Below are positions 1 to 36,090 of a stretch of DNA of 62,907 nt, piece by piece. Where the stretch lies: positions 9,890 through 72,796 of the forward strand of contig CAZMHJ010000001.1 of assembly GCA_964566075.1 (NCBI GenBank). The letters run 5' to 3'. The DNA comes from an uncultured Candidatus Saccharibacteria bacterium (lineage in GTDB: Bacteria > Patescibacteriota > Saccharimonadia > Saccharimonadales > CAIOMD01). A program made the position numbers and the translations under genes. The stretch's first letter is position 1; each line of letters starts with the position of its first letter. Under the pieces are notes generated by a model. That model ran no database searches. It was not told the DNA's origin and saw only the letters and a program-made list of their open reading frames with translations.

Positions 1-2691
1 GCGGGCAATAACACCCTTGTTACCGTGACGTCCAGCTAACTTGTCACCAACTGCAACTTTACGCATTTGGGCAACAAACACCTGAATTTGCATAATCACA
101 CCTGCTTTAAGCTCATGGCCAGTGGCTCGGCTAAAGACTTTTACGCCAACAACCTTACCATGCTTACCATTGCTCATACGCTGAGATGTGTCGCGAACTT
201 CTTTCGCTTTTTCGCCAAAGATAGCGCGTAGTAGACGTTCTTCGCTACTAAGCTCTTGCTCACCTTTAGGGGTAATCTTTCCAACTAGGATATCGCCTGG
301 GTGTACTTCGGCACCAATACGGACAATACCGTCTTCGTCTAGATGACGAAGTGCTTCTTCTGAAACATTTGGAATATCACGAGTTACAACTTCTGGCCCA
401 AGTTTGGTTTCGCGAACTTCGGTCATGTAGTCAACAATATGTACGCTGGTAAAGACATCTTCTTTAACAAGTCGTTCGCTAATAACCACGGCGTCTTCAA
501 AGTTGTAGCCACCCCATGGCATAAATGCCACAAGCACGTCTTTACCAAGTGCGAGTTCGCCATTCTGGACACTCATACCTTCGATAAGAACATCACCAGC
601 CTTAACTGCGTCACCCGAGTTAACAACCACTTTTTGGTTGATGCTCGAACCTTCGTTGCTACGCTGGAAGTGCATTGGGTGGTAAGTCTTTTTAACCTTA
701 CCGTAGTCAACAACAACTTCATCACCACTTGCTTTGGTGACGGTACCGTTGTCTTCTGCAAGCACAATTTGGCCTGAGTTACGAGCCACGACAGATTCCA
801 TACCGGTACCAACGGTTGGTGCAGCTGGGTTAATCAGTGGAACTGCCTGACGTTGCTGGTTTGAGCCAATAAGGCTACGAAGCACGTAGTTCTTTTCAAT
901 ATAAGGAACAAGTGCGGCACTTGAACCGATAATCTGTTGTGATGCTGCGTCCACGTGAGTGACATCGTTTGCATCAACTTCTGCGGCAGCAAGACGAGCA
1001 CGAGCAGACACACGAGGGGCGATAAAGTAACCGTTGTTGTCAACTTCGGTACCTGCACCTGCAATAACTGCTTTTTCTTCTTCACTTGCGTCAAGATAGA
1101 TAACCTCTGTCGTAACCTTAGCCTTTACTGGCCAGGTAATCTTTGCTTTGACAGCTTCTAACTTTTTAACATCAGCGGCGCTAATAGTGGCGCCTTTTTT
1201 AACAATCGTTTTGCCTTTTTCATCTTCTAAATCTACAGCGGCAATGTGGCCAGCTGCATCTTTAGCAGGGACAGCGTTAATAACCTTACGATATGGTGTC
1301 TCCAAGAAACCATATTCGTTAATGCGCGCATAACTTGCCATATTAAGTACCAAACCAATGTTGGCACCTTCTGGCGTTTCAACCGCACAAATACGACCAT
1401 AGTGAGTCGCGTGTGCGTCACGTACTTCAAATCCTGCACGTTCGCGTGATAGACCACCAGGACCCATCGAACTAAGGCGTCGCTTGTGAGCGAGCTCAGA
1501 AAGTGGATTAATTTGGTCCATGAACTGGCTGAGCTGTGAACTTGCAAAGAATTCGCGGACAGCAGCAACAACTGGGCGAGCATTAATAAGCTGACCAGGG
1601 GTTACGGTTTCGATTTCGCTCATAGACATACGGTCTTTAGCGTTTCGTTCCATGCGAAGTAAACCGATACGGAACTGGCGTTGTACAAGTTCGCCAACCA
1701 ATTTCACACGGCGATTAGCCAAGCTATCAATATCGTCAGCTGGCTCTTGTGTGTTATTAAGTCGAATAACTTCAGCAACAATTGCAATTAAGTCTTCAAG
1801 ACGCATAACACGGTTTTCAACGGTGTTTGGTACGTCAAGGTCAAGACGCTTGTTGATTTTATAGCGCCCAACACGACTAAAGTCAAAACGCTTGAAGTTG
1901 TAGAACATGTTTTCTAACAAGCTACGAGCGTTATCAACGGTTGCAAGATCACCTGGGCGCAAACGACGATACACCTCAATCAAGGCTTCGTTGCTACCCT
2001 TAGCTGGGTCTTTTTCAAAAGTTGCGTCGATGTAGTTGAGTTTGCCAGTATCGACGTGCTTAACAGCGTCGCGGATAGCGGTTTCACTCATACCAAGTGC
2101 TTTAAATAAGGTAGTAACCGCAATCTTACGACGACGGTCAATCTTTACATATAATGCACCACTAGCAGCGGTTTCAAACTCTAACCATGCACCACGGTTT
2201 GGAATAACCTTAGCACCGTACAAACGGTGACCGCCATGATTTTCGCCTGTAAAGAACACACCCGGGCTACGAATAAGCTGGCTAACAACTACACGCTCTG
2301 CACCGTTGATAACAAAGGTGCCGCGGTTCGTCATCCATGGGTAGTCGCCTAGGTAGATTTCTTGTTCTTTTACTTCGCCTGTTACCTTGTTAGTCAATTC
2401 TACAACTGCCTTAAGTGGCGCGTCGTAGCTAACGTTATTTTCTCGGGCCTCAGATTCAGTAATCTTTGGTTCCTCAAAATGGTAACTCTTGAAACTTAAT
2501 GAAAGTTTGGTACCGGTATAGTCATCTATTGGACTTACTTCGGCTAAAAGCTCGCCTAAACCTTCGTCAACAAACCACTGGAAGCTCTTGTTCTGGTGGT
2601 CTACGAGGTTAGGCAGGCTGATATCATCACTTTTTGTGTAGTAGATGCGCTGCGATTGCGCAGTTGTACTCTTGGCTGCTGTCTTGGCCAT
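1..2691 (-). CDS. rpoB: DNA-directed RNA polymerase beta subunit, N-terminal 897 codons; the 3' end runs off the window start
   Basis: Minus-strand frame is open from ATG (2689-2691) to position 1. It is absent from the ORF track because no stop lies in the window. My translation starts MAKTAAKSTTAQSQRIYYTKSDDISLPNLVDHQNKSFQWF and contains GTFVINGAERVVVSQL, SQLSQFMDQINPLSELAHKRRLS and GLSRERAGFEVRD. Confidence 0.95.
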   Translation of the reverse strand, partial: MAKTAAKSTTAQSQRIYYTKSDDISLPNLVDHQNKSFQWFVDEGLGELLAEVSPIDDYTGTKLSLSFKSYHFEEPKITESEARENNVSYDAPLKAVVELTNKVTGEVKEQEIYLGDYPWMTNRGTFVINGAERVVVSQLIRSPGVFFTGENHGGHRLYGAKVIPNRGAWLEFETAASGALYVKIDRRRKIAVTTLFKALGMSETAIRDAVKHVDTGKLNYIDATFEKDPAKGSNEALIEVYRRLRPGDLATVDNARSLLENMFYNFKRFDFSRVGRYKINKRLDLDVPNTVENRVMRLEDLIAIVAEVIRLNNTQEPADDIDSLANRRVKLVGELVQRQFRIGLLRMERNAKDRMSMSEIETVTPGQLINARPVVAAVREFFASSQLSQFMDQINPLSELAHKRRLSSMGPGGLSRERAGFEVRDAHATHYGRICAVETPEGANIGLVLNMASYARINEYGFLETPYRKVINAVPAKDAAGHIAAVDLEDEKGKTIVKKGATISAADVKKLEAVKAKITWPVKAKVTTEVIYLDASEEEKAVIAGAGTEVDNNGYFIAPRVSARARLAAAEVDANDVTHVDAASQQIIGSSAALVPYIEKNYVLRSLIGSNQQRQAVPLINPAAPTVGTGMESVVARNSGQIVLAEDNGTVTKASGDEVVVDYGKVKKTYHPMHFQRSNEGSSINQKVVVNSGDAVKAGDVLIEGMSVQNGELALGKDVLVAFMPWGGYNFEDAVVISERLVKEDVFTSVHIVDYMTEVRETKLGPEVVTRDIPNVSEEALRHLDEDGIVRIGAEVHPGDILVGKITPKGEQELSSEERLLRAIFGEKAKEVRDTSQRMSNGKHGKVVGVKVFSRATGHELKAGVIMQIQVFVAQMRKVAVGDKLAGRHGNKGVIAR

Positions 2692-2882
2692 AAAAAAGCA
2701 GATCTCCTGTTATTGATTGATATGTTTTACCTTATTTTGCGCGCGAAGGTTAACTAAGCGGGTATTGTTTGAGCACTCGTGATTTGGAGACACGCGAGCA
2801 CTGGCCCGATTACACTACTTCTTAATACTAAGTCTATAGACTCTGTAAAACAATGTAAAGATTACTACTATGTAGTTTTTAC

Positions 2883-2938
2883 AACCTCTTTCGCCGTTTA
2901 CGGCTCATCAGTACGACTATTACATTCGTATAGAGATT
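2883..2938 (-). ncRNA. Type III hammerhead self-cleaving ribozyme, copy 1 (predicted cleavage between 2931 and 2930)
   Basis: Minus-strand RNA reads AAUCUCUA^UACGA-AUGUAAUAG-UCGUA-CUGAUGA-GCCG-UAAA-CGGC-GAAA-GAGGUU. The full catalytic core is present. Stems I and II are loop-closed and stem III is open. The stems covary with copy 2. Confidence 0.8.
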
Positions 2939-2939
2939 T

Positions 2940-2973
2940 CCGCCTCGAGGCCGAACTAAATGGCCTCGGGCGG
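2940..2973 (-). other. GC-rich 12-bp stem-loop (clamp A1) directly 5' of hammerhead copy 1
   Basis: Minus-strand CCGCCCGAGGCC-AUUUAGUUC-GGCCUCG(A)GGCGG. It is conserved with 4863..4896. No U-tract follows, so it is not a canonical intrinsic terminator. Confidence 0.7.
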
Positions 2974-2994
2974 AAGGTCTGATTGGTTTAATCG

Positions 2995-3162
2995 TTATTT
3001 GGGCCTGTATTTAATAGCAGCAGCAAGTGTCACTACCATTATCAAAAGCCCAAGTGCCGAAACGATGAATAGTGTCGGCACAATAGCTTGTGGCCAGAAC
3101 GAGTACTCCATACTGAGCACAAGTATGAAAGTTATGAAAGTGAGTACTTGAACAGCCTTCAT
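2995..3162 (-). CDS. Small membrane protein, 55 aa (hypothetical)
   Basis: Below the ORF-track size cutoff. ATG at 3160-3162 is preceded by GGGAGAAAT. Translation is MKAVQVLTFITFILVLSMEYSFWPQAIVPTLFIVSALGLLIMVVTLAAAIKYRPK, with two hydrophobic helices and TAA at 2995-2997. Confidence 0.55.
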   Translation of the reverse strand: MKAVQVLTFITFILVLSMEYSFWPQAIVPTLFIVSALGLLIMVVTLAAAIKYRPK

Positions 3163-3191
3163 ATTTCTCCCTTCACGTCAGGAGATGATGG

Positions 3192-3479
3192 TTACTTAAC
3201 CACTTGTTTTGACTCTCGCGTGAAAAGCAACATCGCGAGAGGCGATACAAGTGCACCAGCATAGAACCAATACGGTTCAACTACCGTACCAAGTCCAAAG
3301 AAGCACACTGTAAACACGATGAGCCCTAGCGCGATAAGGAGCCATTGCCATCCATTAAACACAAGAACGGGGTTACCCTGATAGTCGGGGTGGCCACGCT
3401 CAATTACGACAGCGAACAGCACGAACAAGCTCATGACTGCCCATGCAGTTGCGACTGCACACATCAGACCAGTCAACAT
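3192..3479 (-). CDS. Small membrane protein, about 95 aa (hypothetical)
   Basis: Track ORF 3192..3494 uses a TTG start. I prefer ATG at 3477-3479, preceded by GAGGGTGAGG. The protein has several hydrophobic helices. Confidence 0.6.
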   Translation of the reverse strand: MLTGLMCAVATAWAVMSLFVLFAVVIERGHPDYQGNPVLVFNGWQWLLIALGLIVFTVCFFGLGTVVEPYWFYAGALVSPLAMLLFTRESKQVVK

Positions 3480-3548
3480 GTACCTCACCCTCAACCTATA
3501 TCGACGATGAATACAGGTATTATATAGTAACTCAAAATTAAAACGACT

Positions 3549-3582
3549 CGCCCACTCGATATGTCTTTATCGAGGGGCGGGT
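3549..3582 (-). repeat. 34-nt palindromic repeat (hairpin B1), identical to 4341..4374
   Basis: cgcccactcgatatgtctttatcgaggggcgggt forms a stem of about 13 bp with one A/G mismatch. It lies downstream of CDS 3618..3932, and on the minus strand GUCGUUUUAAUUUU follows. Confidence 0.75.
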
Positions 3583-3617
3583 GTATGTTGGGTAAAGGAA
3601 CAGCTAGTGTCCATGCT

Positions 3618-3932
3618 TCACCCTGTCAGATTTTCACGCCTGTCGTCCGGCATGCGGCGAAGCCACTTGAGTTCCTGGAAGAATAGCCACGGCCCAACAA
3701 AGACCACAGCTATTCCAAGTATCTTGCCTTCGCTATCGAGAACCGAAGGCGCAAGCAAGAAGATGACCACCGCTACGAAGATGAACGTCACAGCAATCAA
3801 AGCAATCTGCTTTCGCTCAGGTGCGCTTAGAAGATCACGAGGCAACATCACGCCGTAATCAAGTGCAAAGGCGAGAGAGATTAGCCCATAGAGCACCGCG
3901 AAACTTGCCAGTGCACTCAGCACAAACTGCAT
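3618..3932 (-). CDS. Small membrane protein, 104 aa (hypothetical)
   Basis: This is the C-terminal part of track ORF 3618..4166. ATG at 3930-3932 is preceded by GGAGGACTC. The sequence MQFVLSALASFAVLYGLISLAFAL... is hydrophobic. The upstream part of the track ORF overlaps 3941..4216 and looks non-coding. Confidence 0.6.
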   Translation of the reverse strand: MQFVLSALASFAVLYGLISLAFALDYGVMLPRDLLSAPERKQIALIAVTFIFVAVVIFLLAPSVLDSEGKILGIAVVFVGPWLFFQELKWLRRMPDDRRENLTG

Positions 3933-3940
3933 GAGTCCTC

Positions 3941-4216
3941 CTAGTAGTCGTCTTCGTTGGGCAGATGGGTACGTTGTTCCTGCTTTATCTCTTCGATGAC
4001 TGGGATGTAGATAACCGGTAGTAACATGACCAGCGTGACGAGCCCTGCAAGTACCGCTCTTGGCGTCATGCGCAGCTCTGGCCACAGAATGATGAACATG
4101 GCCACGAGGCAGATTGACATGCTGGTGCAAGTCTTCGAGAATCGGTCGTACCACATGCCTCGCCACATGCGACGATGGACTTCAACAAACATAATCCGAA
4201 AAGGTACGGTTTTCAC
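3941..4216 (-). CDS. Small membrane protein, 91 aa (hypothetical)
   Basis: Track ORF with a GTG start preceded by GGAGGAG. It has two hydrophobic helices and an acidic tail. Its stop lies 8 nt before the next ATG. Confidence 0.6.
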   Translation of the reverse strand: MKTVPFRIMFVEVHRRMWRGMWYDRFSKTCTSMSICLVAMFIILWPELRMTPRAVLAGLVTLVMLLPVIYIPVIEEIKQEQRTHLPNEDDY

Positions 4217-4259
4217 AACTCCTCCGTAGGTGTAGGTAGGTGTTCGAAACTAGTTGCAT

Positions 4260-4288
4260 ATTTTACGATTTTTAAGCATTTTTGTCAA
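4260..4288 (-). promoter_or_regulatory. Sigma-70-like promoter for 3941..4216 / 3618..3932
   Basis: Minus strand reads TTGACA (4288..4283), a 17-nt spacer, then TAAAAT (4265..4260). Confidence 0.5.
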
Positions 4289-4301
4289 TTTTTAAGCAAT
4301 T

Positions 4302-4323
4302 GAAAAACGGCCCTTTTGGCCGT
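4302..4323 (-). terminator. Intrinsic terminator after CDS 4393..4737
   Basis: Minus strand reads ACGGCC-AAAAG-GGCCGU followed by UUUUU. Confidence 0.6.
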
Positions 4324-4340
4324 ATATAAAGTAAGTTCCC

Positions 4341-4374
4341 CGCCCACTCGATATGTCTTTATCGAGGGGCGGGT
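4341..4374 (-). repeat. 34-nt palindromic repeat (hairpin B2), identical to 3549..3582
   Basis: Exact 34-nt identity with B1. The stem extends to 4337. It lies 19 nt downstream of the stop of CDS 4393..4737. Confidence 0.75.
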
Positions 4375-4392
4375 TCAGCTTGTTCGTAGGCG

Positions 4393-4737
4393 TTAGCCCA
4401 TGTCATTCATGATGTCATCTACGATGCGCTTTGCCATCGCATTGTACTTTGCGTCTTCCTTGCGGAAGCGCCTGTACCAGAACACGGCGTCATAGATGAA
4501 CCATACGGTGACTAGAGCCACCACTACGGTGAAGATGGTGAAGAACGTCACGCGATCGGCAGGCATATCCCTGCCAAAACTCGTTGCCGATGTCATGACC
4601 ATACTGCCAATCAATCCTGCAGAGGCGAAAAATCCAGGGCCAGGCCTACCGTACTTCGTCTTACCCTTGAAGTAGCTCGCCACTCCGACAGCAATGAACA
4701 GCAATGCGAGAACCAGTGCCGGAATTCCTGCGCTCAT
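4393..4737 (-). CDS. Small membrane protein, 114 aa (hypothetical)
   Basis: Track ORF with three hydrophobic segments and a charged C-terminus. Confidence 0.65.
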   Translation of the reverse strand: MSAGIPALVLALLFIAVGVASYFKGKTKYGRPGPGFFASAGLIGSMVMTSATSFGRDMPADRVTFFTIFTVVVALVTVWFIYDAVFWYRRFRKEDAKYNAMAKRIVDDIMNDMG

Positions 4738-4779
4738 CAGATTTCCTATCTGTTAAAGGTACACTTACAAGCTAAATAT

Positions 4780-4807
4780 ATTATATCATCTTTTTTTGAT
4801 TATTCAA
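4780..4807 (-). promoter_or_regulatory. Sigma-70-like promoter with extended -10 for CDS 4393..4737
   Basis: Minus strand reads TTGAAT (4807..4802), a 16-nt spacer, then TGATATAAT (-10 at 4785..4780). The -35 overlaps the 3' strand of hammerhead stem III. Confidence 0.5.
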
Positions 4808-4861
4808 TCTCTTTCGTCGTTTACGACTCATCAGAACGACTACAAAATTCGTTGAGAGATT
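4806..4861 (-). ncRNA. Type III hammerhead self-cleaving ribozyme, copy 2 (predicted cleavage between 4854 and 4853)
   Basis: Minus-strand RNA reads AAUCUCUC^AACGA-AUUUUGUAG-UCGUU-CUGAUGA-GUCG-UAAA-CGAC-GAAA-GAGAUU. The core is identical to copy 1. There are compensatory pair changes in stems I and II. Confidence 0.8.
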
Positions 4862-4862
4862 T

Positions 4863-4896
4863 CCGCCACGAGGCCGATAATTATGGCCTCGGGCGG
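4863..4896 (-). other. GC-rich 12-bp stem-loop (clamp A2) directly 5' of hammerhead copy 2
   Basis: Minus-strand CCGCCCGAGGCC-AUAAUUAUC-GGCCUCG(U)GGCGG. Same stem as A1, with a different loop and a different bulged base. Confidence 0.7.
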
Positions 4897-4932: not shown

Positions 4933-5253
4933 TTAAGCCGAGACCTGATCTGTCTGCTCGCTTTTGAGCACAGTACGGATGCGATCAACATTGAGGCCAA
5001 GCCCGTAGACCACATAACCGCACGATATGCTGAGTGGTATCCAGATCGCTAAGCCATAGCTTCCCTGCACGTGCATGAATATTGCAAACACAAGCACCGC
5101 ACTTTCCAGGACCAGCAGCCCGATACTACCCGCGAGGTAGAAGGATGCCCTGATGATGCGCGTCCGTTCAAGCACGGCTCGAGCGAAATTGATGCATGCA
5201 ATTGCACTCAGCATCAGACAGATGAAGAAAACCAAAACGATTGGTAGATACAT
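4933..5253 (-). CDS. Small membrane protein, about 106 aa (hypothetical)
   Basis: Track ORF 4933..5256 starts at GTG. The adjacent ATG at 5251-5253 has GGAG 8 nt upstream. The protein has three or four hydrophobic helices. Confidence 0.65.
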   Translation of the reverse strand: MYLPIVLVFFICLMLSAIACINFARAVLERTRIIRASFYLAGSIGLLVLESAVLVFAIFMHVQGSYGLAIWIPLSISCGYVVYGLGLNVDRIRTVLKSEQTDQVSA

Positions 5254-5304
5254 CACGATTACTCCAAAGTCCGTGGGCGTAGAGTCTCTACACCCAATAA
5301 ATAC

Positions 5305-5334
5305 ATTATATCATATAGCTTATGCTTTTGTCAA
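5305..5334 (-). promoter_or_regulatory. Sigma-70-like promoter with extended -10 for CDS 4933..5253
   Basis: Minus strand reads TTGACA (5334..5329), an 18-nt spacer ending in TGA, then TATAAT (5310..5305). Confidence 0.5.
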
Positions 5335-5354: not shown

Positions 5355-5382
5355 TATTAAAACAGCCCTATTCTGGGCTGTT
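5355..5382 (-). terminator. Probable terminator after clpP
   Basis: AACAGCCC-loop-GGGCUGUU stem about 27 nt after the clpP stop, followed by a U/A-rich tail. Confidence 0.45.
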
Positions 5383-5408
5383 TTTCAAGTACTACTAAGT
5401 GTCTAAAA

Positions 5409-5996
5409 TTAGCGTTTTTCGATAATTCCGTCTACGAGGCCGTATTTTTTGGCTTCTTCGGCAGTCATCCAGTAATCGCGCTCTACGTCTTTTTCGATTG
5501 TTGCAAGCTTTTGGCCCGTATTTTTGGCTAGAATTTCATTCAATAACTTCTTAAGGCGTAGCCCTTCTTTAAGGTCAATTTCCATATCGGTCACCTTACC
5601 ACGAGTGCCGCTGCTTGGCTGGTGAATCATGGCGGTGGCACTCGGCAACATAAAGCGCTTGCCTTTTGTGCCGCTACTCAATAGGAAGGCACCCATGCTG
5701 GCTTGTACACCGATACCAATGGTTTGTACGTCGCATTTTACAAACTGCATCGTGTCGTAAATGGCCATACCATCATAGACGCTACCACCTGGGCTGTTAA
5801 TGTAAAAGACAATATCTTTTTTAGGGTCTTCGGCTTCTAAAAAGAGCATCTGAGCAACTACAAGATTAGCAGTGTGCTCGTTCACATCCTCGCCCAAAAA
5901 GATAATGCGCTCTTTAAGCAGACGGCTGTAAATATCATAGGCACGCTCCATGCGGCCATCGTTTTCTATCACTGTTGGAATAAGCATGTTTTTCAT
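5409..5996 (-). CDS. clpP: ATP-dependent Clp protease proteolytic subunit
   Basis: IIFLGEDVN..., [14 protein letters not shown] and MIHQPS are ClpP blocks. The start is moved to ATG 5994-5996 (MKNMLIPTV...) because the track start at 6035 lies inside the CIRCE operator. Confidence 0.93.
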
Positions 5997-6021
5997 AGTA
6001 CTTATTATGCTACGCCACAAA

Positions 6022-6048
6022 TTAGCACTCGTCAAGCTTGAGTGCTAA
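6022..6048 (-). promoter_or_regulatory. CIRCE (HrcA operator) upstream of clpP
   Basis: TTAGCACTC-gtcaagctt-GAGTGCTAA is an exact match to the consensus TTAGCACTC-N9-GAGTGCTAA. On the minus strand a TTGACG hexamer lies within the element. Confidence 0.8.
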
Positions 6049-6416
6049 TCTTCATCGACACCACGGTACATTCTTGTATGCGTGCCATCTGGAGAAACAA
6101 TCCAAACATCATCTGTGTAGTGGTGCAGTTTTAGCTCACTTTCAACTTTTTCAACTCGAGCATGTGCCAGTAGTGATGCCATAGCAAAGGTGGGTACATC
6201 AACCGCAACCGACCATTTATTACCACTACGAGATTCATCGTACACTTCGTAGGTATTTGGATAATTCGGGACGGTTGGTTGAGCCTCGGTATGCTCTGGT
6301 TCTTCATCTACCTTAAACAGAAAGCTATCTCGTAAGAAAGTTGGCAAAATAGGCTTTGCGTTCTCTTTCGCACGCTCAGCAGTTTCTGATAAAAACCATT
6401 TATCTCGATTACTCAT
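6045..6416 (-). CDS. Hypothetical protein, 123 aa
   Basis: Track ORF with no motif I recognise. Its stop codon lies inside the CIRCE right arm. Confidence 0.55.
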   Translation of the reverse strand: MSNRDKWFLSETAERAKENAKPILPTFLRDSFLFKVDEEPEHTEAQPTVPNYPNTYEVYDESRSGNKWSVAVDVPTFAMASLLAHARVEKVESELKLHHYTDDVWIVSPDGTHTRMYRGVDED

Positions 6417-6454
6417 ATAGGTAGTATAAACATTCGTTGTTTAGTAACCATGAG

Positions 6455-6892
6455 CTATTTCAGCTCGTTGAGTATAGAAACTATGTGTTCCAATTCACCC
6501 GGCTGCTCTACATCACTGCGCCAAAGTTGTTTTGCTGGTAACGGCGTTTTCTGTACTTCGAGTTTGGTTATACCCGCTGCCTTGACTGAGTCATCAATCA
6601 TTGTTAGTAATCCAACGTAGGTTAACTGATTTCTTGCAATAACAGCGCGTATAACAACCATGTCTGTAGACTGTAAACCGCGCTGTAATTGCTGTGCCTC
6701 TATCTGCACAAATTCAGGCTTTCTTTGAATGTAGCCAATAAATCGAGCAGTATCATATTCATCTTCTTCTTGCTGAGGCAAATCTGCCCACCGGCTACCT
6801 TGAGCTAGTGCAACTTCTGCTAATAGTTTTACAATAGGCCGGACCACATGAGCCACCCGCATATTTGGATTATATCCGGGCAATGGTTTCAT
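6455..6892 (-). CDS. Hypothetical protein, about 145 aa
   Basis: Track ORF 6455..6928. I prefer ATG at 6890-6892 (MKPLPGYNPN...), 7 nt after the tig stop, which avoids a 29-nt overlap. Confidence 0.55.
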   Translation of the reverse strand: MKPLPGYNPNMRVAHVVRPIVKLLAEVALAQGSRWADLPQQEEDEYDTARFIGYIQRKPEFVQIEAQQLQRGLQSTDMVVIRAVIARNQLTYVGLLTMIDDSVKAAGITKLEVQKTPLPAKQLWRSDVEQPGELEHIVSILNELK

Positions 6893-6899
6893 GTTTACT

Positions 6900-8180
6900 C
6901 TATTTTGCGTAGCCAACAAGCTTCGCAATGGTCTTTTCGGTCAAGAGGCGTGATGCAATATCACGACGTGCTTCTGGTTTCTCGAGTTCGGCCTGCATTT
7001 GCGGGTCGGTGTATTGGCCCTTCATAATTTGCATGCGAATTTCGAGTTCTTCTGGGGTAACCGTTAGTTTTTCAGCCTCGGCAATTTCGCTGAGTACCAA
7101 GCCAGCCTTAAGACGTTCTTCGGCTGCTGGTTTAAGCTCTTTTTCGGTATATTCTTCTTCGCTTAAGCCACTATTTTTAAGGTATTCTTGAAATGTTTCA
7201 CCACGATACGATAGATTTTGCTTAAATTCACGGTCGACAATCTCTACTTGTTCTGCAAGTAAAGCTTCGGGGAGTTTAACCTTAGTCTTACCAATAAGTT
7301 CTTTAATAATAAGGTTTTCGAACTCTTGCTGAGCCTGACGCTCACGCTCAACACCTAGTTGCTTTTCAATATCAGCTTTCAGTTCGTCAACCGTCTTGAA
7401 TGGACCAACTTTAGCCGCAAACGCATCATTTAGTTCATCAAGCTTGGTTTCTTCGATTTTATTAACGGTTACCGTGAATGTTACTTTTTTACCCTGTAGG
7501 GCTTTTACACCGTAGTCTTTAGGAAACGGAATCGTAAACTCTTTGGTATCACCTTTCTTAAGGCCAATCACGTTGTCTTCAAACCCTGGGATAAAGGTAT
7601 TGCTACCAAGTGCTAATGGATAATCTTTACCGTCGGCATTGGCGATTGGCTCACCATTGGCATCTTTACCGGCAAAATCAATAAAGGCACGATCACCACT
7701 TTTGGCCGCTCGTTCTACTTCGGTATAGTCAGCGGCTTGGCTTTGCAGGCGACCAAGAACTTCTTTAACATCGCTGGCGCTTACTTTAGCTACAGGTTTT
7801 TTAACCGTAATTTTTTTATAGTCAGGCAGTGTAATCTTAGCGATTACTTCTACCTCAGCCGTAAATTCTAGCTCGGTAAATGGTACAAATTTTGTAAGCT
7901 CTACTTTGGGCTGTGAAACAACACGTAGTTGTTTTTCAGCAACAGCGTCGCCGTAATAATGATTAATTGCTTCGTCGAGCACCTCGGCCTGGAGTGTGTT
8001 CGGGTCGAGTTGCTTTTCTACGATTTCAAGCGGCACTTTGCCCTTGCGAAAACCAGGCACACTCACGCGTGGTGCGAGTTTTTCGACAACATGGTGCTTC
8101 ATGCTTGCTAAATCAGCTGCATTTGCAGAAATGGTTAGTTTAGTGACATTGTCTGAGATTGATTTAAGAGTTACTTGCAT
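6900..8180 (-). CDS. tig: Trigger factor (ribosome-associated PPIase chaperone)
   Basis: N-terminal GFRKGKVP signature, a central FKBP-like segment (FIPGFEDNVIGLKKGD), 426 aa. Confidence 0.92.
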   Translation of the reverse strand: MQVTLKSISDNVTKLTISANAADLASMKHHVVEKLAPRVSVPGFRKGKVPLEIVEKQLDPNTLQAEVLDEAINHYYGDAVAEKQLRVVSQPKVELTKFVPFTELEFTAEVEVIAKITLPDYKKITVKKPVAKVSASDVKEVLGRLQSQAADYTEVERAAKSGDRAFIDFAGKDANGEPIANADGKDYPLALGSNTFIPGFEDNVIGLKKGDTKEFTIPFPKDYGVKALQGKKVTFTVTVNKIEETKLDELNDAFAAKVGPFKTVDELKADIEKQLGVERERQAQQEFENLIIKELIGKTKVKLPEALLAEQVEIVDREFKQNLSYRGETFQEYLKNSGLSEEEYTEKELKPAAEERLKAGLVLSEIAEAEKLTVTPEELEIRMQIMKGQYTDPQMQAELEKPEARRDIASRLLTEKTIAKLVGYAK

Positions 8181-12018: not shown

Positions 12019-13272
12019 CTATTTTATTGCAATTATAACTTGAGCGTTTTTGCCCCTGCGCAGCACAGCATAGCCGTTAATTGCGTCATCAGTGTCAAGC
12101 GTTGTTTTACTAAGTGGTATTTGCGATCCATTAACGTAAATTGCATTGCTGTCTAAAAATCGTCGAGCTTCACCCTTGCTACTTGCCAACCCAGCATCAA
12201 CTAGTGCGCCAGCCAGATCTACACCAGCAAATGCTTCAAACACACCCAGTTCATTTCCAAGCGCTTCGAAATCTTCAACAGTTAGCTCAGTGTACGCACG
12301 GGCACCAAACAGTACTTCGCTAATACGCTTAACACTCTCTGCGCGAGCTTCGCCATGGACAATCTTAGTAACTTCGTACGCAAGTGTTTTTTGCGCTAAG
12401 CGGCCGGCCTTGTCTTGTTCAAACTCAGTTATTAACGATTCTATTTCTTCTTTTGAAAGGAGTGTGTAAACCTTAAGGTAATCTGCAACACCTTCATCAT
12501 CAACATTAAGCCAAAATTGGTAGAACTGATATGGAGTTGTAAGCTCAGGGTCAAGCCATACTGCGCCTGCCTCACTTTTACCAAACTTTTTACCTGTTGC
12601 CTTGTTAATTATGAGCGGGGCACTCCAAATGTGAGCTTCTCCCCCCGCAATACGGCGAATAAGTTCAACACCCGCGATGCTATTCCCCCATTGGTCAGCA
12701 CCACAAACTTGCAGCGTTACTCCATGCTCACGATATAAATGCAAAAAATCATAACCTTGAATGAGCGAATAGCTAAATTCGGCATAGCTAATACCAGCGC
12801 CATCTTCACTTAATCTGCTTTGTACAAATTCGCGGCCAAGCATTTGCCGCATAGGTACGTGTTTACCAACATCACGCAAGAACTCAAGGTAATTAAGCCC
12901 CTTAAACCAGTCGTAGTTGTCAACCATCTCAACACTATAGCCAGCAAAAAGTTGTTGATATTGTGCTGCAATACCTGCTTTGTTGGCATCAACTTCTTCT
13001 ACGGTTTTTAAATCACGCTCTTCTGATTTACCATCTGGGTCACCAATTAAGCCGGTCGCGCCCCCAACTAATAAGATTGGTTTGTGACCAGCCATAATAA
13101 AATGACGAATCATCATACTCATCGCTAATTGGCCAATGTGCATCGATTTTGCACTTGGGTCTACACCCCAATAAAACGTTATCGGCTCGCCATCGAGTAT
13201 TGTTATGTCTTGAAACGTAGTTTGGTTTACAAAGCCACGCCACTGCAGTTCTTCTGAAAGTTTTGTATCCAT
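12019..13272 (-). CDS. tyrS: Tyrosine--tRNA ligase
   Basis: HIGH-like SMHIGQ, KMSKS-like KFGKSE and a C-terminal S4-like domain. The start is set to ATG 13270-13272 (MDTKLSEELQWRGF...). The track's N-terminal extension reads through a tRNA gene. Confidence 0.92.
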   Translation of the reverse strand: MDTKLSEELQWRGFVNQTTFQDITILDGEPITFYWGVDPSAKSMHIGQLAMSMMIRHFIMAGHKPILLVGGATGLIGDPDGKSEERDLKTVEEVDANKAGIAAQYQQLFAGYSVEMVDNYDWFKGLNYLEFLRDVGKHVPMRQMLGREFVQSRLSEDGAGISYAEFSYSLIQGYDFLHLYREHGVTLQVCGADQWGNSIAGVELIRRIAGGEAHIWSAPLIINKATGKKFGKSEAGAVWLDPELTTPYQFYQFWLNVDDEGVADYLKVYTLLSKEEIESLITEFEQDKAGRLAQKTLAYEVTKIVHGEARAESVKRISEVLFGARAYTELTVEDFEALGNELGVFEAFAGVDLAGALVDAGLASSKGEARRFLDSNAIYVNGSQIPLSKTTLDTDDAINGYAVLRRGKNAQVIIAIK

Positions 13273-13290
13273 ATCTGTTGTATATGGTAA

Positions 13291-13321
13291 CAAAACAAAA
13301 CAAAAACCCCAAAAAGGGGTT
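13291..13321 (-). terminator. Intrinsic terminator between tRNA-Leu and tyrS
   Basis: Minus strand reads AACCCC-UUUUU-GGGGUU followed by UUUGUUUUGUUUUGUU, ending about 20 nt before the tyrS ATG. Confidence 0.65.
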
Positions 13322-13328
13322 CTTGTTT

Positions 13329-13413
13329 TGGTACCGCGGAGAGGACTTGAACCTCCACGTCTTGCGACACTAGCTCCTAAGGCTAGCGTGTCTACCAATT
13401 CCACCACCGCGGC
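13329..13413 (-). tRNA. tRNA-Leu (anticodon UAG), class II with long variable arm, CCA encoded
   Basis: GCCGCGG-UG-GUGGAAUUGGUAGACAC-G-CUAGC-CUUAGGA-GCUAG-UGUCGCAAGACGU-GGAGG-UUCAAGU-CCUCU-CCGCGGU-ACCA. The cloverleaf was folded by hand. Discriminator is A73. Confidence 0.9.
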
Positions 13414-22905: not shown

Positions 22906-23382
22906 TTATTTTGGTTCGTAGTATATCCTCATCAAATACCCATAGGTACCAAACTCGTCGATTCTGCCATGAAGTATCACATCATAAACATTCAAACTTT
23001 GAAGGGCTTCAACTTCCCTTGCGGCATAATCAAGAAAAGAGGATATACCAATATTAGGGTCTTCATCCATATCCAGCTCAAATAAGTGAACCTTCTGATT
23101 ACTTCTGATACGACTATTGTAAAGCCTATTCTCATCTGTTGGTGAGTTGCTTTTAAGAAGCAGGGCATCGTCTTGAATTTTCTTATCAGATTTTCTTAGT
23201 TTATACACCTCTAATTCAAGTGTTGGCCATGTACTATCATCCACTGCATTTGAAAGATATAAACTTACAGAACGAGCATATCCAACAGATTTAACATCAT
23301 GGGCAAGACTTTTTAGCATATCAGGTAGTGATACTTTGCGATTGGTGTTCCCTGCTTGAAAATAATGTGTTTTCATATTCAT
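22906..23382 (-). CDS. Candidate cognate immunity protein of the RHS toxin, 158 aa (hypothetical)
   Basis: ATG at 23380-23382 overlaps the RHS TAA stop (TAATG). The protein starts MNMKTHYFQAGN... It has no TM segment and no known motif. The track's longer start at 23451 lies inside the RHS gene. Confidence 0.55.
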   Translation of the reverse strand: MNMKTHYFQAGNTNRKVSLPDMLKSLAHDVKSVGYARSVSLYLSNAVDDSTWPTLELEVYKLRKSDKKIQDDALLLKSNSPTDENRLYNSRIRSNQKVHLFELDMDEDPNIGISSFLDYAAREVEALQSLNVYDVILHGRIDEFGTYGYLMRIYYEPK

Positions 23383-26300
23383 TACAATACTACTGCACAC
23401 ACCGGTGCCGCAACTAAACAACCAGGACTCAACACTTTTGCACCCCACCATATGGCTATTAGAACACTAGCCGCTGCAGCCGTACCACCCGCAGCTTTTT
23501 TTGCCTGCGGGCTTACGCTCGGTAGACCTCCCGATGGAAGTGATGGTGGCCCTTTTCTATTATTCTTGTCTTTCGACTCCCTTGATTGTCTTTCACCCCG
23601 AATTTTTTCATTATACTTTTGTTTTGCTTTTGCGCTGTTCCAGTCCTTGGAGTTGTATTTATTCTTACCCTCATTCCACGCTTTAAGCTCCTTGAAGTTT
23701 AGCTTTTTCTCCTGTGCCTGCTGACGACCTCTCTGTGCCCTTTGACCAGTAAGATCATAATCAGTTATGGGATTATTCACATAGGCATATGCATTGTCAG
23801 TACCGCCTTCTATTGGATCAACTTGTGCAAATCGCCCTATGCTTGCTAGATATACACGTGCTCCCATTTGTACCACAGGGATGCTGAAGTTTGATTCAGA
23901 TAGTTTCTGGTGTTGCCCAATGTACGAGTAGCTTGCGCCCCTATCGGCATTAGTCGGTGCTAATTGGCCATCAATCAATTCACCAAACGGCCCTGTAACA
24001 TTTGTGCTCAGTAATGAGCCATCTGCTTTCGTCATCGCAAAGTTATCGCCATGTATATTTGGCAAGCTAAACGTCATTTGCGCACTTGGGTCACTCGCGT
24101 TTGGTCGAATTGTAACAAGCACGTTACCAGGCAGTGTCACATACTTTTCGACTACGTTCCATGCATTGTCTCGTATGAAGTCTGGTGTGTCACCACTACC
24201 CGTAAAGCCATAGAAACTATCGCCAGCTGCACTCCATGTAAAGTTTGCAATACTGTTGATATATCGCCCCATGATGCGACCTTGTACATCTCGGGTATAA
24301 TAGGTTGCGATTCCATTACCAGTATCAGAAGTGTACTGAACCACACCCGTGTTTCTATCTGAGGCATCATATGCAAATCGTACTGGCAAGTTTGATGTTC
24401 CGATTGCTGTTGTATTACCGTGGTCATCATAGTCAACAACCGCAAGTGATGGGTCTGAGCCTGCTAGTAATCTGTCGGCGCTATCGTAACAATAGTTCGT
24501 TGTTTTACCATTTATTGTTTGAGTAGTGCGGTTACCATTTTTGCCAGCATTTAAGTTTGCACTCGTCTGTGCGCATTGTGCGGCAGTAGCAGTACCAAAC
24601 CCATAGCTATAACTATTAGTACCGATTGTGGCGGCTGTTAATCTCCCCCCACCGTCATATGTATAGCTCTTTGCTAAACCATTTTCGGTACCACTTATTA
24701 CATCGCCACTTACAGTTCTATTAACTTGGTCACTGATGATTGTTGAGCCATCGCCAAGGGTATATGATAATCCGTTCATACGACCAAGGTTGTCTCGTGT
24801 AATAGAGCCTAGCTTCTGCTGATTAGCAGTTGGGTACGCAACGCTTGCAATTCGGCTAAACGTATCATACGTTACCGTAGCCAATACAACTGAGTTGAGT
24901 GATTGAGATACTAGGCGATCGTAATCATCGTAAGTGTATGTTTCTGTACCAAGAGGACTAGCACGACTTACAAGATGACCAGCATTGTCATACGCACTTG
25001 TAGTTACGTTGCTATGTGTGTCTTTGTACGATATAACCCTACCGAGCAAATCTGTCTCAACTATAATAGATCCGTTTTGGTCTGTCGTACTAGTAACTAG
25101 TGGGTTACCGTTAACGGCATAGTTGCTACTTATCGTGCGGCCTGCTCGACCGTTTATATCAGGTATGACCGTCGAGATAACTCGCCCACGCGCATCGTAA
25201 TTTGTGCAAGTCCATGGGTCATTATTAAACTTTGTCGCCACTACCCTGCCTGTTGAATCATATATCGTTTCGCTAGTTCGCGGAGTTTGAGGGCCAACCC
25301 CATCTGGGTCAGGTTCTATCTTGCCCTTTGCGAAGCCAGCTTGGCTAACAGGTGACGAGTTGGCATCACATTCATTCTTTCGAACCTCAGTAGCGCCGTA
25401 GTACAGATAGGTATAGGTATTACCGCCAGGCATTGTCTTACTTGTTTGTCGCATTAAACTACCCGCTTGATAAGGCTCGTATGTGTAGCTTGTTGTTAGG
25501 TTAAGTCCGCCAACGTCCTCAGTTACTGATTTAGCCTGTGCAAGCTCGGGTTGTGCGCCATAATCTGTCTTTGTAGTACTATCACCTGTTTGGCTATCAA
25601 ATACCTTACTGCTAGTTGTAAGTGCGTAGACTGGCTTTACGAAAGTTGGCCTGCTTGTTCCAAGTCCGGCGTTTGTATCGGTAATTCCAGGTCCAGACAA
25701 CCATAGTTCTAGTGCTCCTTGGTTATATCCCGTATGGCCATACGCTAGCTCAATTCTATAGGGTTTACCAGCCTCGGCAGTAAATGTGGCAGTCTGCCGC
25801 TTTTGGGTTACTCCCTCTGAACGGGTTCCAAGATTATTAATTAAAACGTTATCGTTAACCGTTAATCTTGCGCCATCGTCGTTCCATATATTGTATGTAT
25901 ATGTTCCTGATTGTGGGAACGTAACCGTTCCAGTAGCTCTAAAACCGTAGCCGTAGTATTTCGCATCGGGATTTTTTACAATGTTCGTTGCCCATATTGC
26001 AGAGTTATCATTCCCAAAAATTACGAGATTACCGTCGTTCTGCATAACTAAACTTCCAGAAGGACGGCCAGATGTTGCAGAAGCCCAGGTTGCCACGTTA
26101 TTACCGTTATATATTACTAAGTTTCCATCACCCTGAAGTACAAGCCGGCAATTTGCGCCACTTGTATTTGATGCCCAAACTACACCACTTGGACCGTAGA
26201 TAACCAGATTACCATCAGTCTGCATTATGAGCCTAAACTGGCCATCTTCTGACCATATCGACTGATTTGTACCAAGTGTGCCGCCGACCAATAATGAGGC

Positions 26301-35860: not shown

Positions 35861-36090
35861 AACCGCCTCCTTTAAATTGCAAAAATACAGCCAGCCTGTT
35901 CTGTCCGATTTTTCAGACAATGAGCTAGTTGTATTTTTATTTCTCCGATACCCACACAGAGGAGGTTTCGCCACTTGCTCCTGCTATACCTGGCGACCAA
36001 GTATTTGGTATAGCTATCAACGCGCTCTGTTATTTCTAAATATATTCCTTTTTTTGCAATATGCAACCATAAGCTTAATAAAAGTAAGTA

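What the first reader, a model, noticed from the sequence alone, without database searches (positions are those of the whole stretch)
2931..4853. The two ribozyme cleavage sites bracket a 1,923-nt five-gene module of tiny membrane proteins
The two same-orientation hammerheads would excise an RNA running from 4853 down to 2931 (1,923 nt). It carries CDSs 4393..4737, 3941..4216, 3618..3932, 3192..3479 and 2995..3162. An RNA with a 5'-OH and a 2',3'-cyclic phosphate end is the substrate for RtcB-type ligation. A ribozyme-bounded unit could therefore be a processed or even circularised RNA, analogous to hammerhead-flanked retrozyme or viroid-like units.

There is evidence against a single full-length product. 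I see internal promoters (4260..4288, 4780..4807) and at least one good internal terminator (4302..4323). Independent 3'-end processing of two shorter transcripts is therefore at least as likely.
Basis: inference. Interest (0 to 1): 0.65.

Follow-up and report, generated by a model that had tools for sequence, protein, structure and literature searches.

The report
Hammerhead ribozymes punctuating small-gene cassettes
Two real self-cleaving hammerhead RNAs lie in a strain-specific insert between clpP and rpoB of a wastewater Saccharibacterium, and each most likely trims the tail of its own small-gene transcript rather than the pair cutting out a 1.9-kb (possibly circular) RNA.

Summary
Two same-strand type III hammerheads lie at 4861..4806 and 2938..2883 on the minus strand. 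They would cut after C4854 and A2931, 1,923 nt apart, and five small ORFs with two predicted membrane helices each lie between them.

Both belong to a covarying hammerhead family that mostly falls below Rfam's threshold. I recovered it from metagenomes.

The "excised or circular unit" reading is not supported. The recurring unit is [small ORF, hairpin, hammerhead], often followed at once by the next promoter. A sixth similar ORF (5256..4933) precedes HH1. The closest relative (L117) has clpP, two paralogous copies of [membrane-protein gene, hairpin, HH], then the rpoB promoter. Other loci carry two or three such cassettes.

Spacing and cargo between hammerheads are not conserved, and the three window ORFs searched are ORFans. 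Eighty related species keep tig-clpP-rpoB but have no hammerhead and no such ORFs. No circular junction appears in four metatranscriptome assemblies, but that test has little power.

Best reading: each hammerhead forms the 3' end of its own transcription unit and insulates the next one. HH2 does this ahead of rpoB's own promoter and leader.

Clustered hammerheads flanking genes are already known from prophages (Perreault 2011). This is a new member of that kind, in a non-phage chromosomal setting in a candidate-phyla-radiation (CPR) bacterium.

The parts
4806..4861 (-). HH1, type III hammerhead; self-cleavage predicted 3' of C4854 (the 3' product starts at A4853)
   Evidence: Sequence; Rfam RF00008 42.6 bits, E 2.5e-7; family model R1 76.1 bits; MFE fold is a canonical three-way junction
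4863..4896 (-). 12-bp GC-rich hairpin directly upstream of HH1, with no U-tract; it would cap the 3' end of the upstream cleavage product
   Evidence: Fold; part of the 97-nt repeat
2883..2938 (-). HH2, type III hammerhead; self-cleavage predicted 3' of A2931
   Evidence: Sequence; Rfam 25.4 bits, E 0.019; R1 74.8 bits; MFE fold. Differences from HH1 are compensatory: stem II U-A vs C-G, pair 1.1-2.1 A-U vs U-A, stem III A-U vs G-U
2939..2974 (-). GC-rich hairpin directly upstream of HH2, homologous to 4863-4896
4933..5256 (-). Small 2-TM ORF (106-107 aa), the gene whose transcript HH1 would end; an ORFan
5305..5334 (-). Perfect sigma-70 consensus promoter (TTGACA-18-TATAAT with TG) for the 107-aa ORF, downstream of the clpP terminator 5384..5359
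4780..4807 (-). Promoter-like site (TTGAAT-16-TATAAT with TG); its -35 box overlaps the last 2 nt of HH1, so its transcripts start downstream of the HH1 cut
4393..4737 (-). 114-aa 2-TM ORF, an ORFan. In a strain variant, 7 of 11 substitutions fall at third codon positions
4341..4374 (-). Hairpin, copy 1 of a perfect 34-nt repeat, followed by the intrinsic terminator 4323..4307
4307..4323 (-). Intrinsic-terminator-like stem-loop with a U-tract
4260..4288 (-). Promoter-like site (11 of 12 matches) for the next two ORFs
3941..4216 (-). 91-aa 2-TM ORF (GTG start behind GGAGGAG; JGI calls an 83-aa version)
3618..3932 (-). 104-aa 2-TM ORF; its only match among 1.84 billion representatives is a 96%-identical copy
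3549..3582 (-). Hairpin, copy 2 of the perfect 34-nt repeat, followed by a U-rich tract (terminator-like)
3192..3479 (-). 95-aa 2-TM ORF
2995..3162 (-). 55-aa 2-TM ORF, the gene whose transcript HH2 would end (stop codon 64 nt before the cut)
2831..2859 (-). Promoter-like site (9 of 12) downstream of HH2, directly ahead of the conserved rpoB leader
2735..2823 (-). rpoB 5' leader with the boxes AAGAAGUAGUGUA and CCUUCGCGCGCAAAA, conserved across Saccharibacteria
1..2691 (-). rpoB (5' part; runs off the window)
5409..6035 (-). clpP, the upstream border of the variable island

Best explanation
The window is a Saccharibacteria (TM7) chromosome. Between the conserved neighbours clpP and rpoB it carries a lineage-specific 2.7-kb island of six ORFan genes for small proteins with two predicted membrane helices, arranged in three or four short transcription units.

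Two of these units (5256..4933, and 3479..2995) end in a 97-nt composite 3' module. The module is a strong GC hairpin without a U-tract, followed immediately by a type III hammerhead.

Inferred mechanism:
1. RNA polymerase reads through the hairpin and the hammerhead folds.
2. The hammerhead cuts 8 to 9 nt past the hairpin.
3. The upstream mRNA is left with a hairpin-capped 2',3'-cyclic-phosphate 3' end.
4. Any read-through RNA that would run into the next unit is severed and left with a 5'-OH end.

For HH1 the next unit starts at the promoter 4807..4780. For HH2 the next unit is rpoB, with its own promoter and leader. The hammerheads therefore act singly, as 3'-end formers and insulators of cassettes. 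The 1,923-nt bracket is a by-product of two such cassette ends lying in one array.

Shown: the motifs, their family-wide covariation, their position relative to ORFs, hairpins and promoters, and their absence from 80 related species.
Inferred: cleavage in vivo, and its effect on RNA stability and insulation.
For: Motif reality:
- The core and all three helices are present.
- In 22 family members 93.8% of pair cells form standard pairs, and 0 of 500 shuffles reach this.
- The inner stem III pairs show 4 pair types each. The 1.1-2.1 and 10.2-11.2 pairs covary. H17 is never G.

Cassette logic:
- L117, a close relative, has tig, clpP, [TM gene, hairpin, HH] twice, then promoter, leader and rpoB. 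Its two TM proteins are paralogues (40% identity, E 1e-32) and their hairpin+HH tails are nearly identical.
- L116/L124 has clpP, a 131-aa TM gene, hairpin and HH, then a TATAAT box ahead of an unrelated 283-aa gene.
- L121 has three [~110-aa ORF, ~90-130 nt, HH] units. L126 and L128 have two each.
- Where a same-strand upstream ORF can be identified, the cut lies roughly 20 to 170 nt after its stop codon.
- About half the hammerheads have a strong hairpin just upstream. The hairpin sequences are unrelated between loci.
- A promoter-like site lies within 120 nt downstream in 11 of 26 cases, against 8% of control windows (P about 3e-6).

In the window:
- The HH1 3' end overlaps the -35 box of the next promoter.
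- HH2 lies upstream of a promoter-like site and of a leader that is conserved in relatives without any island.
- The 97-nt repeat covers only hairpin+HH, not the genes.

Precedent: clustered hammerheads flanking genes, proposed to cut long transcripts into gene-length mRNAs and shown to cleave in vitro (PMC3088659).
Against: - There is no RNA-end data. The only RNA runs are assembler contigs with near-uniform depth across rpoB, island and clpP. They run uncut through both sites, so they may be DNA or uncleaved precursor.
- Cleavage activity is untested.
- About half the family members lack an upstream hairpin and 15 of 26 lack a recognisable downstream promoter. The hairpin-HH-promoter layout is therefore a tendency, not a rule.
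- The promoter control windows include coding sequence, which flatters the enrichment.
- Canonical terminators exist in the same island, so it is unclear why a ribozyme is needed.
Confidence: 0.6

Rival explanations
1. Excised unit. Read-through transcription from the promoter at 5334..5305 crosses both hammerheads. Double cleavage releases the 1,923-nt five-ORF RNA with 5'-OH and 2',3'-cyclic phosphate ends, and an RtcB-type ligase may circularise it (retrozyme or viroid-like logic).
For: - The two hammerheads share orientation and sit inside 97-nt direct repeats, a geometry like retrozyme LTRs.
- Same-strand pairs or triplets recur in 6 other loci.
- The end chemistry suits RtcB (established knowledge).
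- Perreault 2011 raised the same possibility.
Against: - Two promoter-like sites and three terminator-like hairpins lie inside the unit.
- The unit's length and cargo are not conserved: 310 to 1,923 nt, with different, paralogous or no ORFs.
- A sixth like gene lies outside the bracket.
- No back-joined contig appears in 4 metatranscriptomes (weak test).
- No RtcB is found among the window's 300-540 aa ORFs (window only).
- I see no target-site duplication by eye.
- Perreault 2011 looked for circles from clustered bacterial hammerheads and found none.
Confidence: 0.06
2. Selfish or mobile punctuation. The hairpin+hammerhead module, or the whole gene-hairpin-HH cassette, is a mobile or recombinogenic element that seeds and shuffles cargo in a hot spot. 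Cleavage would serve the element, or be a relic of a phage or plasmid origin, rather than host gene expression.
For: - The 97-nt module is duplicated without its flanking genes.
- Contigs of co-occurring related strains share the hairpins and hammerhead pieces but not the cargo. An alternative assembly branch departs within 0 to 2 nt of the HH2 3' end, at 2884.
- The clpP-rpoB gap ranges from 169 to 6,886 bp among 68 related species.
- The cargo genes tested are ORFans.
Against: - No integrase, transposase, reverse transcriptase, PHROG or PADLOC hit in or beside the island.
- This type III subfamily has no match in 2.9 million viral contigs.
- The two copies differ by compensatory changes, which indicates selection on the ribozyme fold itself.
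- This rival is compatible with the best explanation rather than exclusive of it.
Confidence: 0.17
3. rpoB regulation. HH2 (and the rpoB-proximal hammerhead in L117) processes transcripts entering rpoB from upstream. It would either create the mature 5' end of a read-through rpoB mRNA or mark it (5'-OH) for decay.
For: A hammerhead sits about 190 to 260 nt upstream of the rpoB start in both the window and L117.
Against: - 80 related species have the same rpoB leader boxes but no hammerhead.
- A promoter-like site lies between HH2 and the leader.
- HH1, and most family members, are not next to rpoB.
Confidence: 0.1
4. Inactive look-alikes. The motifs are decayed or fortuitous and do not cleave.
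For: Both score below Rfam's gathering threshold. RNA-run contigs span both sites uncut.
Against: - The core is a perfect consensus and all helices are intact.
- There are compensatory differences between the copies and strong family-wide covariation.
- The chance expectation for the pattern is 0.13 per window.
Confidence: 0.04

Closest known systems
Clustered hammerhead ribozymes flanking single genes or short gene blocks in bacterial prophages (Perreault et al. 2011, PLoS Comput Biol, PMC3088659)
   Same: - Several same-orientation hammerheads bracket individual genes or short blocks whose identity is not constant.
- The proposed role is cutting longer transcripts into gene- or operon-length mRNAs.
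- Circular or spliced products were considered there too, and not detected.
   Different: - No prophage or integrase context: the flanks are the core genes clpP and rpoB, there are no PHROG hits, and this subfamily is absent from IMG/VR viral contigs.
- The host is a CPR bacterium.
- All copies are type III and often sit between a hairpin without a U-tract and the next promoter.
Hammerhead ribozyme type III, Rfam RF00008
   Same: Consensus catalytic core, closed stems I and II, open stem III, cleavage after an NUH triplet (CUC and CUA).
   Different: The window copies score 42.6 and 25.4 bits, below the gathering score of 48.5. Of 14 family loci scanned, only L129 passes. The subfamily has a fixed stem I (ACGA...UCGU, 8-11 nt loop) and stem II (GYCG-NNNN-CGRC).
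Plant retrozymes and viroid-like circular RNAs with hammerheads
   Same: Direct repeats that each contain a type III hammerhead flank an internal segment. Double cleavage would give 5'-OH and 2',3'-cyclic phosphate ends that a ligase could join.
   Different: - The window unit is 1.9 kb, protein-coding, and contains its own promoters and terminators.
- No target-site duplication, no reverse-transcriptase partner, no evidence of circles or of multiple dispersed copies.
- The repeats are only 97 nt (hairpin plus ribozyme).
Type I hammerheads at gene 3' ends in phage contigs
   Same: Identical stem II and loop (GYCG-UAAA-CGRC) and core. They lie immediately after stop codons, in several cases after a small hydrophobic ORF.
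   Different: Circularly permuted topology (open stem I, closed stem III) and a viral context.
glmS ribozyme and CoTC-type 3'-end or decay-coupled self-cleavage
   Same: Cis cleavage of an mRNA determines the fate of the products through their end chemistry (5'-OH, 2',3'-cyclic phosphate).
   Different: No ligand-sensing domain and a different ribozyme class. The location is a 3' UTR or intergenic region, not a 5' UTR. Coupling to a nuclease is purely hypothetical here.

Membership tests
Hammerhead ribozyme (type III) | Conserved catalytic core: CUGANGA, GAAA, A15.1-U16.1 pair, H17 not G | tested here: met
   HH1: CUGAUGA / GAAA, U16.1, C17. HH2: the same with A17. In 23 family sequences H17 is C 16 times, U 5, A 2 and G never.
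Hammerhead ribozyme (type III) | Three helices around the core, with stems I and II closed by loops and stem III open | tested here: met
   The MFE folds give exactly this: stem I 5 bp, stem II 4 bp, stem III 7 bp. Rfam aligns both to Hammerhead_3.
Hammerhead ribozyme (type III) | Helices supported by covariation in relatives | tested here: met
   Alignment A2 of 22 sequences: 93.8% of cells paired against 73.9% in shuffles (0 of 500 reach it). 85 cells have double changes. Slid controls give 21-57%. Caveat: parts of stems I and II were fixed by the search pattern; only the free positions are informative, and they covary.
Hammerhead ribozyme (type III) | Score at or above the Rfam RF00008 gathering threshold (curated database membership) | tested here: not met
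   42.6 and 25.4 bits against 48.5. This is a database cut-off, not a biochemical criterion. For HH2 the Rfam alignment deleted the 5' strand of stem III instead of pairing it.
Hammerhead ribozyme (type III) | Site-specific self-cleavage | not testable with these tools
   Needs in vitro transcription or RNA end mapping.
Clustered gene-flanking bacterial hammerheads (Perreault 2011) | Two or more same-orientation hammerheads within a few kb flanking genes of variable identity | tested here: met
   Window: 2 copies, 1,923 nt apart. L117, L121, L110, L128, L126/L131 and L120: 2 or 3 copies, 310 to 1,443 nt apart.
Clustered gene-flanking bacterial hammerheads (Perreault 2011) | Prophage or integrase neighbourhood | tested here: not met
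   The neighbours are tig, clpP and rpoB. No PHROG hits. No match to this subfamily pattern in IMG/VR.
Retrozyme / viroid-like hammerhead circular RNA | Hammerhead-containing direct repeats flanking the unit | tested here: met
   97-nt repeats 2877-2973 and 4800-4896, 82% identical.
Retrozyme / viroid-like hammerhead circular RNA | Circular RNA (back-joined junction 2931 to 4853) | tested here: inconclusive
   No such joint in the contigs of 4 metatranscriptomes. Contigs drop rare forms and these libraries show DNA-like flat depth.
Retrozyme / viroid-like hammerhead circular RNA | Small, non-coding, conserved unit present in many copies; target-site duplication | tested here: not met
   The unit is 1,923 nt with five ORFs, promoters and terminators. 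The cargo is not conserved in relatives. Only two copies in 62.9 kb. No duplication at the repeat borders by eye.
Retrozyme / viroid-like hammerhead circular RNA | RNA ligase (RtcB or tRNA ligase) available in the host | not testable with these tools
   Only 62.9 kb of the genome is in hand. The ten window ORFs of 300-540 aa scanned are HisRS, TyrRS, RadA-like, NusA, malic enzyme, PilB-like, GatB, GatA, a TRAM-domain protein and one with no family match.
Rho-independent terminator | GC-rich hairpin followed by a U-tract | tested here: not met
   The hairpins at 4896..4863 and 2974..2939 are followed by AAAUCUCU, which is stem III of the ribozyme, and the terminator scan does not list them. In contrast, 4323..4307 and 5384..5359 are listed.

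The most novel reading that the evidence does not exclude
Read-through transcripts are cut at both hammerheads. The 1,923-nt RNA carrying five small membrane-protein genes is then ligated into a circle, or otherwise persists as an end-protected unit. That would be a bacterial circular polycistronic mRNA, or an RNA-level form of a gene cassette, in a CPR bacterium.
Probability: 0.05. Interest if true: 0.85.

Novelty: new member of a known kind. Interest (0 to 1): 0.4.

Why it matters
The biological roles of most genomic hammerheads in bacteria remain unknown.

This case adds a compact, recurring layout: small ORF, hairpin, type III hammerhead, then often the next promoter. It sits in a non-phage chromosomal hot spot, directly upstream of the essential rpoB gene, in a CPR bacterium where RNA processing is almost unstudied. 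The layout makes the idea of a ribozyme acting as 3'-end former and transcriptional insulator directly testable.

It also shows that a covarying hammerhead subfamily largely escapes Rfam's gathering threshold, so standard annotation misses it.

The more exciting circular-RNA idea is not supported.

Tried and rejected
- Rfam at gathering threshold on the whole window finds only a tRNA. The hammerheads appear only with the E-value threshold.
- A pattern scan of viral contigs using the stem II and core sequence returned 28 hammerheads, all type I and in phages. They are not the same architecture, so they were not used for the family. The type III pattern gave no viral hits.
- A third CTGATGA...CGAAA match at 48447-48468, and one at 5150-5188, lack the helices and are not found by the family model.
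- Eighty Saccharibacteria rpoB loci were searched by regex, tblastn and covariance model. They hold no hammerhead and no homologues of the small ORFs. Fourteen loci with gaps over about 0.9 kb have no Rfam ribozyme of any class at gathering.
- RNA evidence: only assembler contigs exist for the 4 RNA runs. They show no joints and no informative ends, and the contig breaks coincide with the repeats. DNA runs showed strain mosaics, but I could not recover the variant contig sequences.
- Function of the small proteins: nothing above threshold in Pfam, PHROGs or PADLOC. No homologues in 5.8 billion clustered proteins or 1.84 billion representatives.
- Exact-sequence lookup of the 114-aa protein returned only the same strain arrangement.
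- Literature searches for hammerheads in Saccharibacteria or CPR returned nothing.
- Integron-like attC cassettes were considered for the hairpins and dropped. No integrase was seen and the hairpins are unrelated between loci.


Full report
**What is there.**
All relevant genes are on the minus strand. Translation and family scans identify trigger factor (8180..6900), two hypothetical genes, clpP (6035..5409) and rpoB starting at 2691 and running off the window.

The RpoB N-terminus is at most 87% identical to Saccharibacteria (TM7, Saccharimonadales) MAGs. The sequence recurs in wastewater and sludge runs. The window is therefore core chromosome of an uncultured Saccharibacterium.

**The observation.**
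Between clpP and rpoB lie 2.7 kb with six small ORFs: 5256..4933, 4737..4393, 4216..3941, 3932..3618, 3479..3192 and 3162..2995. Each has a Shine-Dalgarno sequence and two hydrophobic segments. JGI gene calls on an identical contig agree.

HH1 is at 4861..4806 and cuts after C4854. HH2 is at 2938..2883 and cuts after A2931. The bounded RNA is 4853..2931, 1,923 nt.

- Rfam's Hammerhead_3 model matches both, but below its gathering score: 42.6 bits (E 2.5e-7) and 25.4 bits (E 0.019) against 48.5. This is why the default scan sees only a tRNA.
- The core pattern is about 30-fold over chance.
- Each hammerhead is preceded, with 1 to 2 nt spacing, by a 12-bp GC hairpin. Hairpin plus ribozyme form a 97-nt direct repeat, 82% identical. 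Its minimum-energy fold is hairpin plus canonical three-way junction.
- The differences between the two ribozymes are compensatory.

**A family, with covariation.**
A degenerate pattern for this architecture found 23 metagenome contigs and none of 2.9 million viral contigs.

In 23 distinct sequences, stem III is 4 to 7 bp of unrelated sequence. The 1.1-2.1 pair and the free stem II pair are always complementary. H17 is never G.

On a 22-sequence alignment, 93.8% of pair cells are standard pairs, against 73.9% in shuffles (0 of 500 reach it) and 21-57% for slid registers.

A covariance model built from the alignment finds further copies in the same loci. In 1.37 Mb around rpoB from 80 related species it finds nothing but the two window copies. 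Only one of the 14 family loci scanned passes Rfam's threshold.

**What the unit is.**
The comparative picture contradicts a ribozyme-bounded module and supports a gene-hairpin-ribozyme cassette.

- The closest relative, L117, reads: tig, clpP, [TM-protein gene, hairpin, HH], [paralogous TM-protein gene (40% identity), near-identical hairpin+HH], promoter, conserved leader, rpoB. The spacing there is 667 nt with a single gene.
- L116/L124 has clpP, a 131-aa TM gene, hairpin and HH, followed by a TATAAT box and an unrelated 283-aa gene.
- L121 has three successive [~110-aa ORF, HH] units. L126/L131 and L128 have two. L110 has two hammerheads 310 nt apart with only hairpins between them.
- Where a same-strand upstream ORF can be identified, the cut lies roughly 20 to 170 nt after its stop codon.
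- About half the hammerheads have a strong hairpin just upstream, and the hairpin sequence differs between loci.
- A promoter-like site follows within 120 nt in 11 of 26 cases, against 8% of control windows.

In the window, HH1 ends the unit driven by a perfect consensus promoter (5334..5305), and its last bases overlap the -35 box of the next promoter (4807..4780). The interval then contains:
- a hairpin plus terminator (4374..4341 and 4323..4307);
- another promoter (4288..4260);
- a second copy of the same hairpin followed by a U-rich tract (3582..3549);
- finally the hairpin and HH2.

HH2 lies upstream of a promoter-like site (2859..2831). It also lies upstream of an rpoB leader whose boxes AAGAAGUAGUGUA and CUUCGCGCG are conserved in relatives that have no island at all.

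A single 1,923-nt RNA would thus require read-through of two terminator-like elements. Transcripts from the internal promoters never contain the HH1 site.

**The island is lineage-specific.**
In 68 related species with both genes on the fetched locus, tig-clpP-rpoB synteny holds. The clpP-rpoB gap ranges from 169 to 6,886 bp (median 877), typically empty or holding one soluble protein of about 230 aa.

None of these species has homologues of the six small ORFs. The three ORFs searched match only near-identical copies of themselves in the large protein collections. None hits Pfam above threshold, PHROGs or PADLOC.

A strain variant of the 114-aa gene has 7 of 11 substitutions at third codon positions, which supports coding.

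Contigs from co-occurring related strains share pieces of the hairpins and hammerheads but not the cargo. One assembly branch leaves the window sequence within 2 nt of the HH2 3' end. This marks a recombination-prone hot spot in which the hairpin-ribozyme modules are the conserved punctuation.

**RNA evidence and ligase.**
Four metatranscriptome runs hold the locus, but only as assembler contigs. Depth is nearly flat from rpoB through the island to clpP. Contigs break only at the repeats and run through both cleavage sites, and no back-joined contig exists. This neither proves nor excludes cleavage or rare circles.

No RtcB is among the window's 300-540 aa ORFs. The rest of the genome is not available.

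**Mechanism proposed.**
Each hammerhead acts alone.
1. The polymerase passes the hairpin, which lacks a U-tract.
2. The ribozyme folds and cuts 8 to 9 nt downstream of the hairpin.
3. The short AU-rich 7-bp stem III lets the products part.
4. The upstream small-gene mRNA keeps a hairpin-capped 2',3'-cyclic-phosphate end.
5. The read-through RNA is disconnected from the next unit and carries a 5'-OH end.

For HH2 this insulates rpoB from transcription out of the accessory island. The motif, its covariation and its placement are shown. Cleavage in vivo and its consequences are inferred. I put this at about 0.6.

Rivals:
- a mobile or selfish cassette-boundary element, which is compatible with the above (0.17);
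- a role in rpoB 5' processing (0.1);
- the excised or circular 1,923-nt RNA (0.06);
- inactive relics (0.04).

**Relation to known systems.**
Perreault et al. 2011 (PMC3088659) described multiple hammerheads flanking single genes or short gene blocks in prophages. They proposed processing into gene-length mRNAs, showed cleavage of 2-kb constructs in vitro, and looked for circular or spliced products without finding them.

The present case is the same kind of arrangement. It differs in three ways. The context is chromosomal and non-phage, in a CPR bacterium. The copies are uniformly type III. The ribozyme tends to be sandwiched between a hairpin and the next promoter.

It is not a retrozyme or viroid-like element by size, coding content, copy number or conservation. 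I found no paper on hammerheads in Saccharibacteria or CPR.

**Verdict.**
The headline interpretation (a ribozyme-bounded, possibly circular five-gene RNA) is not supported. This is a new member of a known kind, of moderate interest.

Noticed in passing
window 2735-2823 (- strand); also L117 and L029-L053, upstream of rpoB: A conserved rpoB 5' leader. The boxes AAGAAGUAGUGUA and (A/C)CUUCGCGCG(C)AAA, with a variable hairpin between them, recur 100-190 nt upstream of rpoB in most Saccharibacteria loci inspected. No Rfam family matches at gathering. It may be an uncharacterised cis-regulatory leader of the rpoBC operon.
   Followed up: partly
L110 2556-2920 (+ strand): Two type III hammerheads of the same family lie only 310 nt apart. 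There is no convincing ORF between them, only several hairpins. The second copy has a different, covarying stem I (GUGAAG...CUUCAC). This is a better candidate for a small ribozyme-bounded RNA than the window unit.
   Followed up: partly
window 3549-3582 and 4341-4374: A perfect 34-nt direct repeat forms a 12-bp bulged hairpin (CCCGCCCCUCGAU...AUCGAGUGGGCGGG) at the ends of two transcription units. Its shape (7 bp, bulge, 5 bp, starting CCGCCC) resembles the hairpins in front of the hammerheads. It may be a REP-like or terminator element family.
   Followed up: partly
window 2884/2885; runs X1, X2 (RNA) and X5 (DNA): Assembly graphs branch within 2 nt of the 3' end of HH2 into an alternative sequence (...TATTACGCAAACTCGCAAACTGCACGGTGA on the + strand). 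In X5, contigs of related strains join pieces of the hairpins and hammerhead to the clpP end with other cargo. This points to strain-level cassette replacement at this hot spot.
   Followed up: partly
L001, L004, L009, L012, L022, L024, L027 (IMG/VR viral contigs): Type I hammerheads with the same stem II and loop (GCCG-UAAA-CGGC) start directly at the end of a small hydrophobic ORF (...FATIVLFIWALI...). This parallels the small-membrane-protein-plus-hammerhead pairing, but in phages.
   Followed up: no
window 6045-6928 (- strand): Two hypothetical genes (123 aa and 157 aa) sit between tig and clpP. They have no Pfam, PHROG or PADLOC hit and no tblastn match in the 80 related loci, so the tig-clpP junction is a second small variable spot.
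   Followed up: partly
window 13332-13413 (- strand): A tRNA with a long variable arm (Rfam 56.2 bits; probably tRNA-Leu, my reading of the anticodon loop). It overlaps the 5' extension of the mechanically listed TyrRS ORF 12019..13407, whose true start must lie further downstream.
   Followed up: no
window 23382-30479 and 31343-35974 (- strand): Two very large ORFs (2,365 aa and 1,543 aa). Not examined.
   Followed up: no
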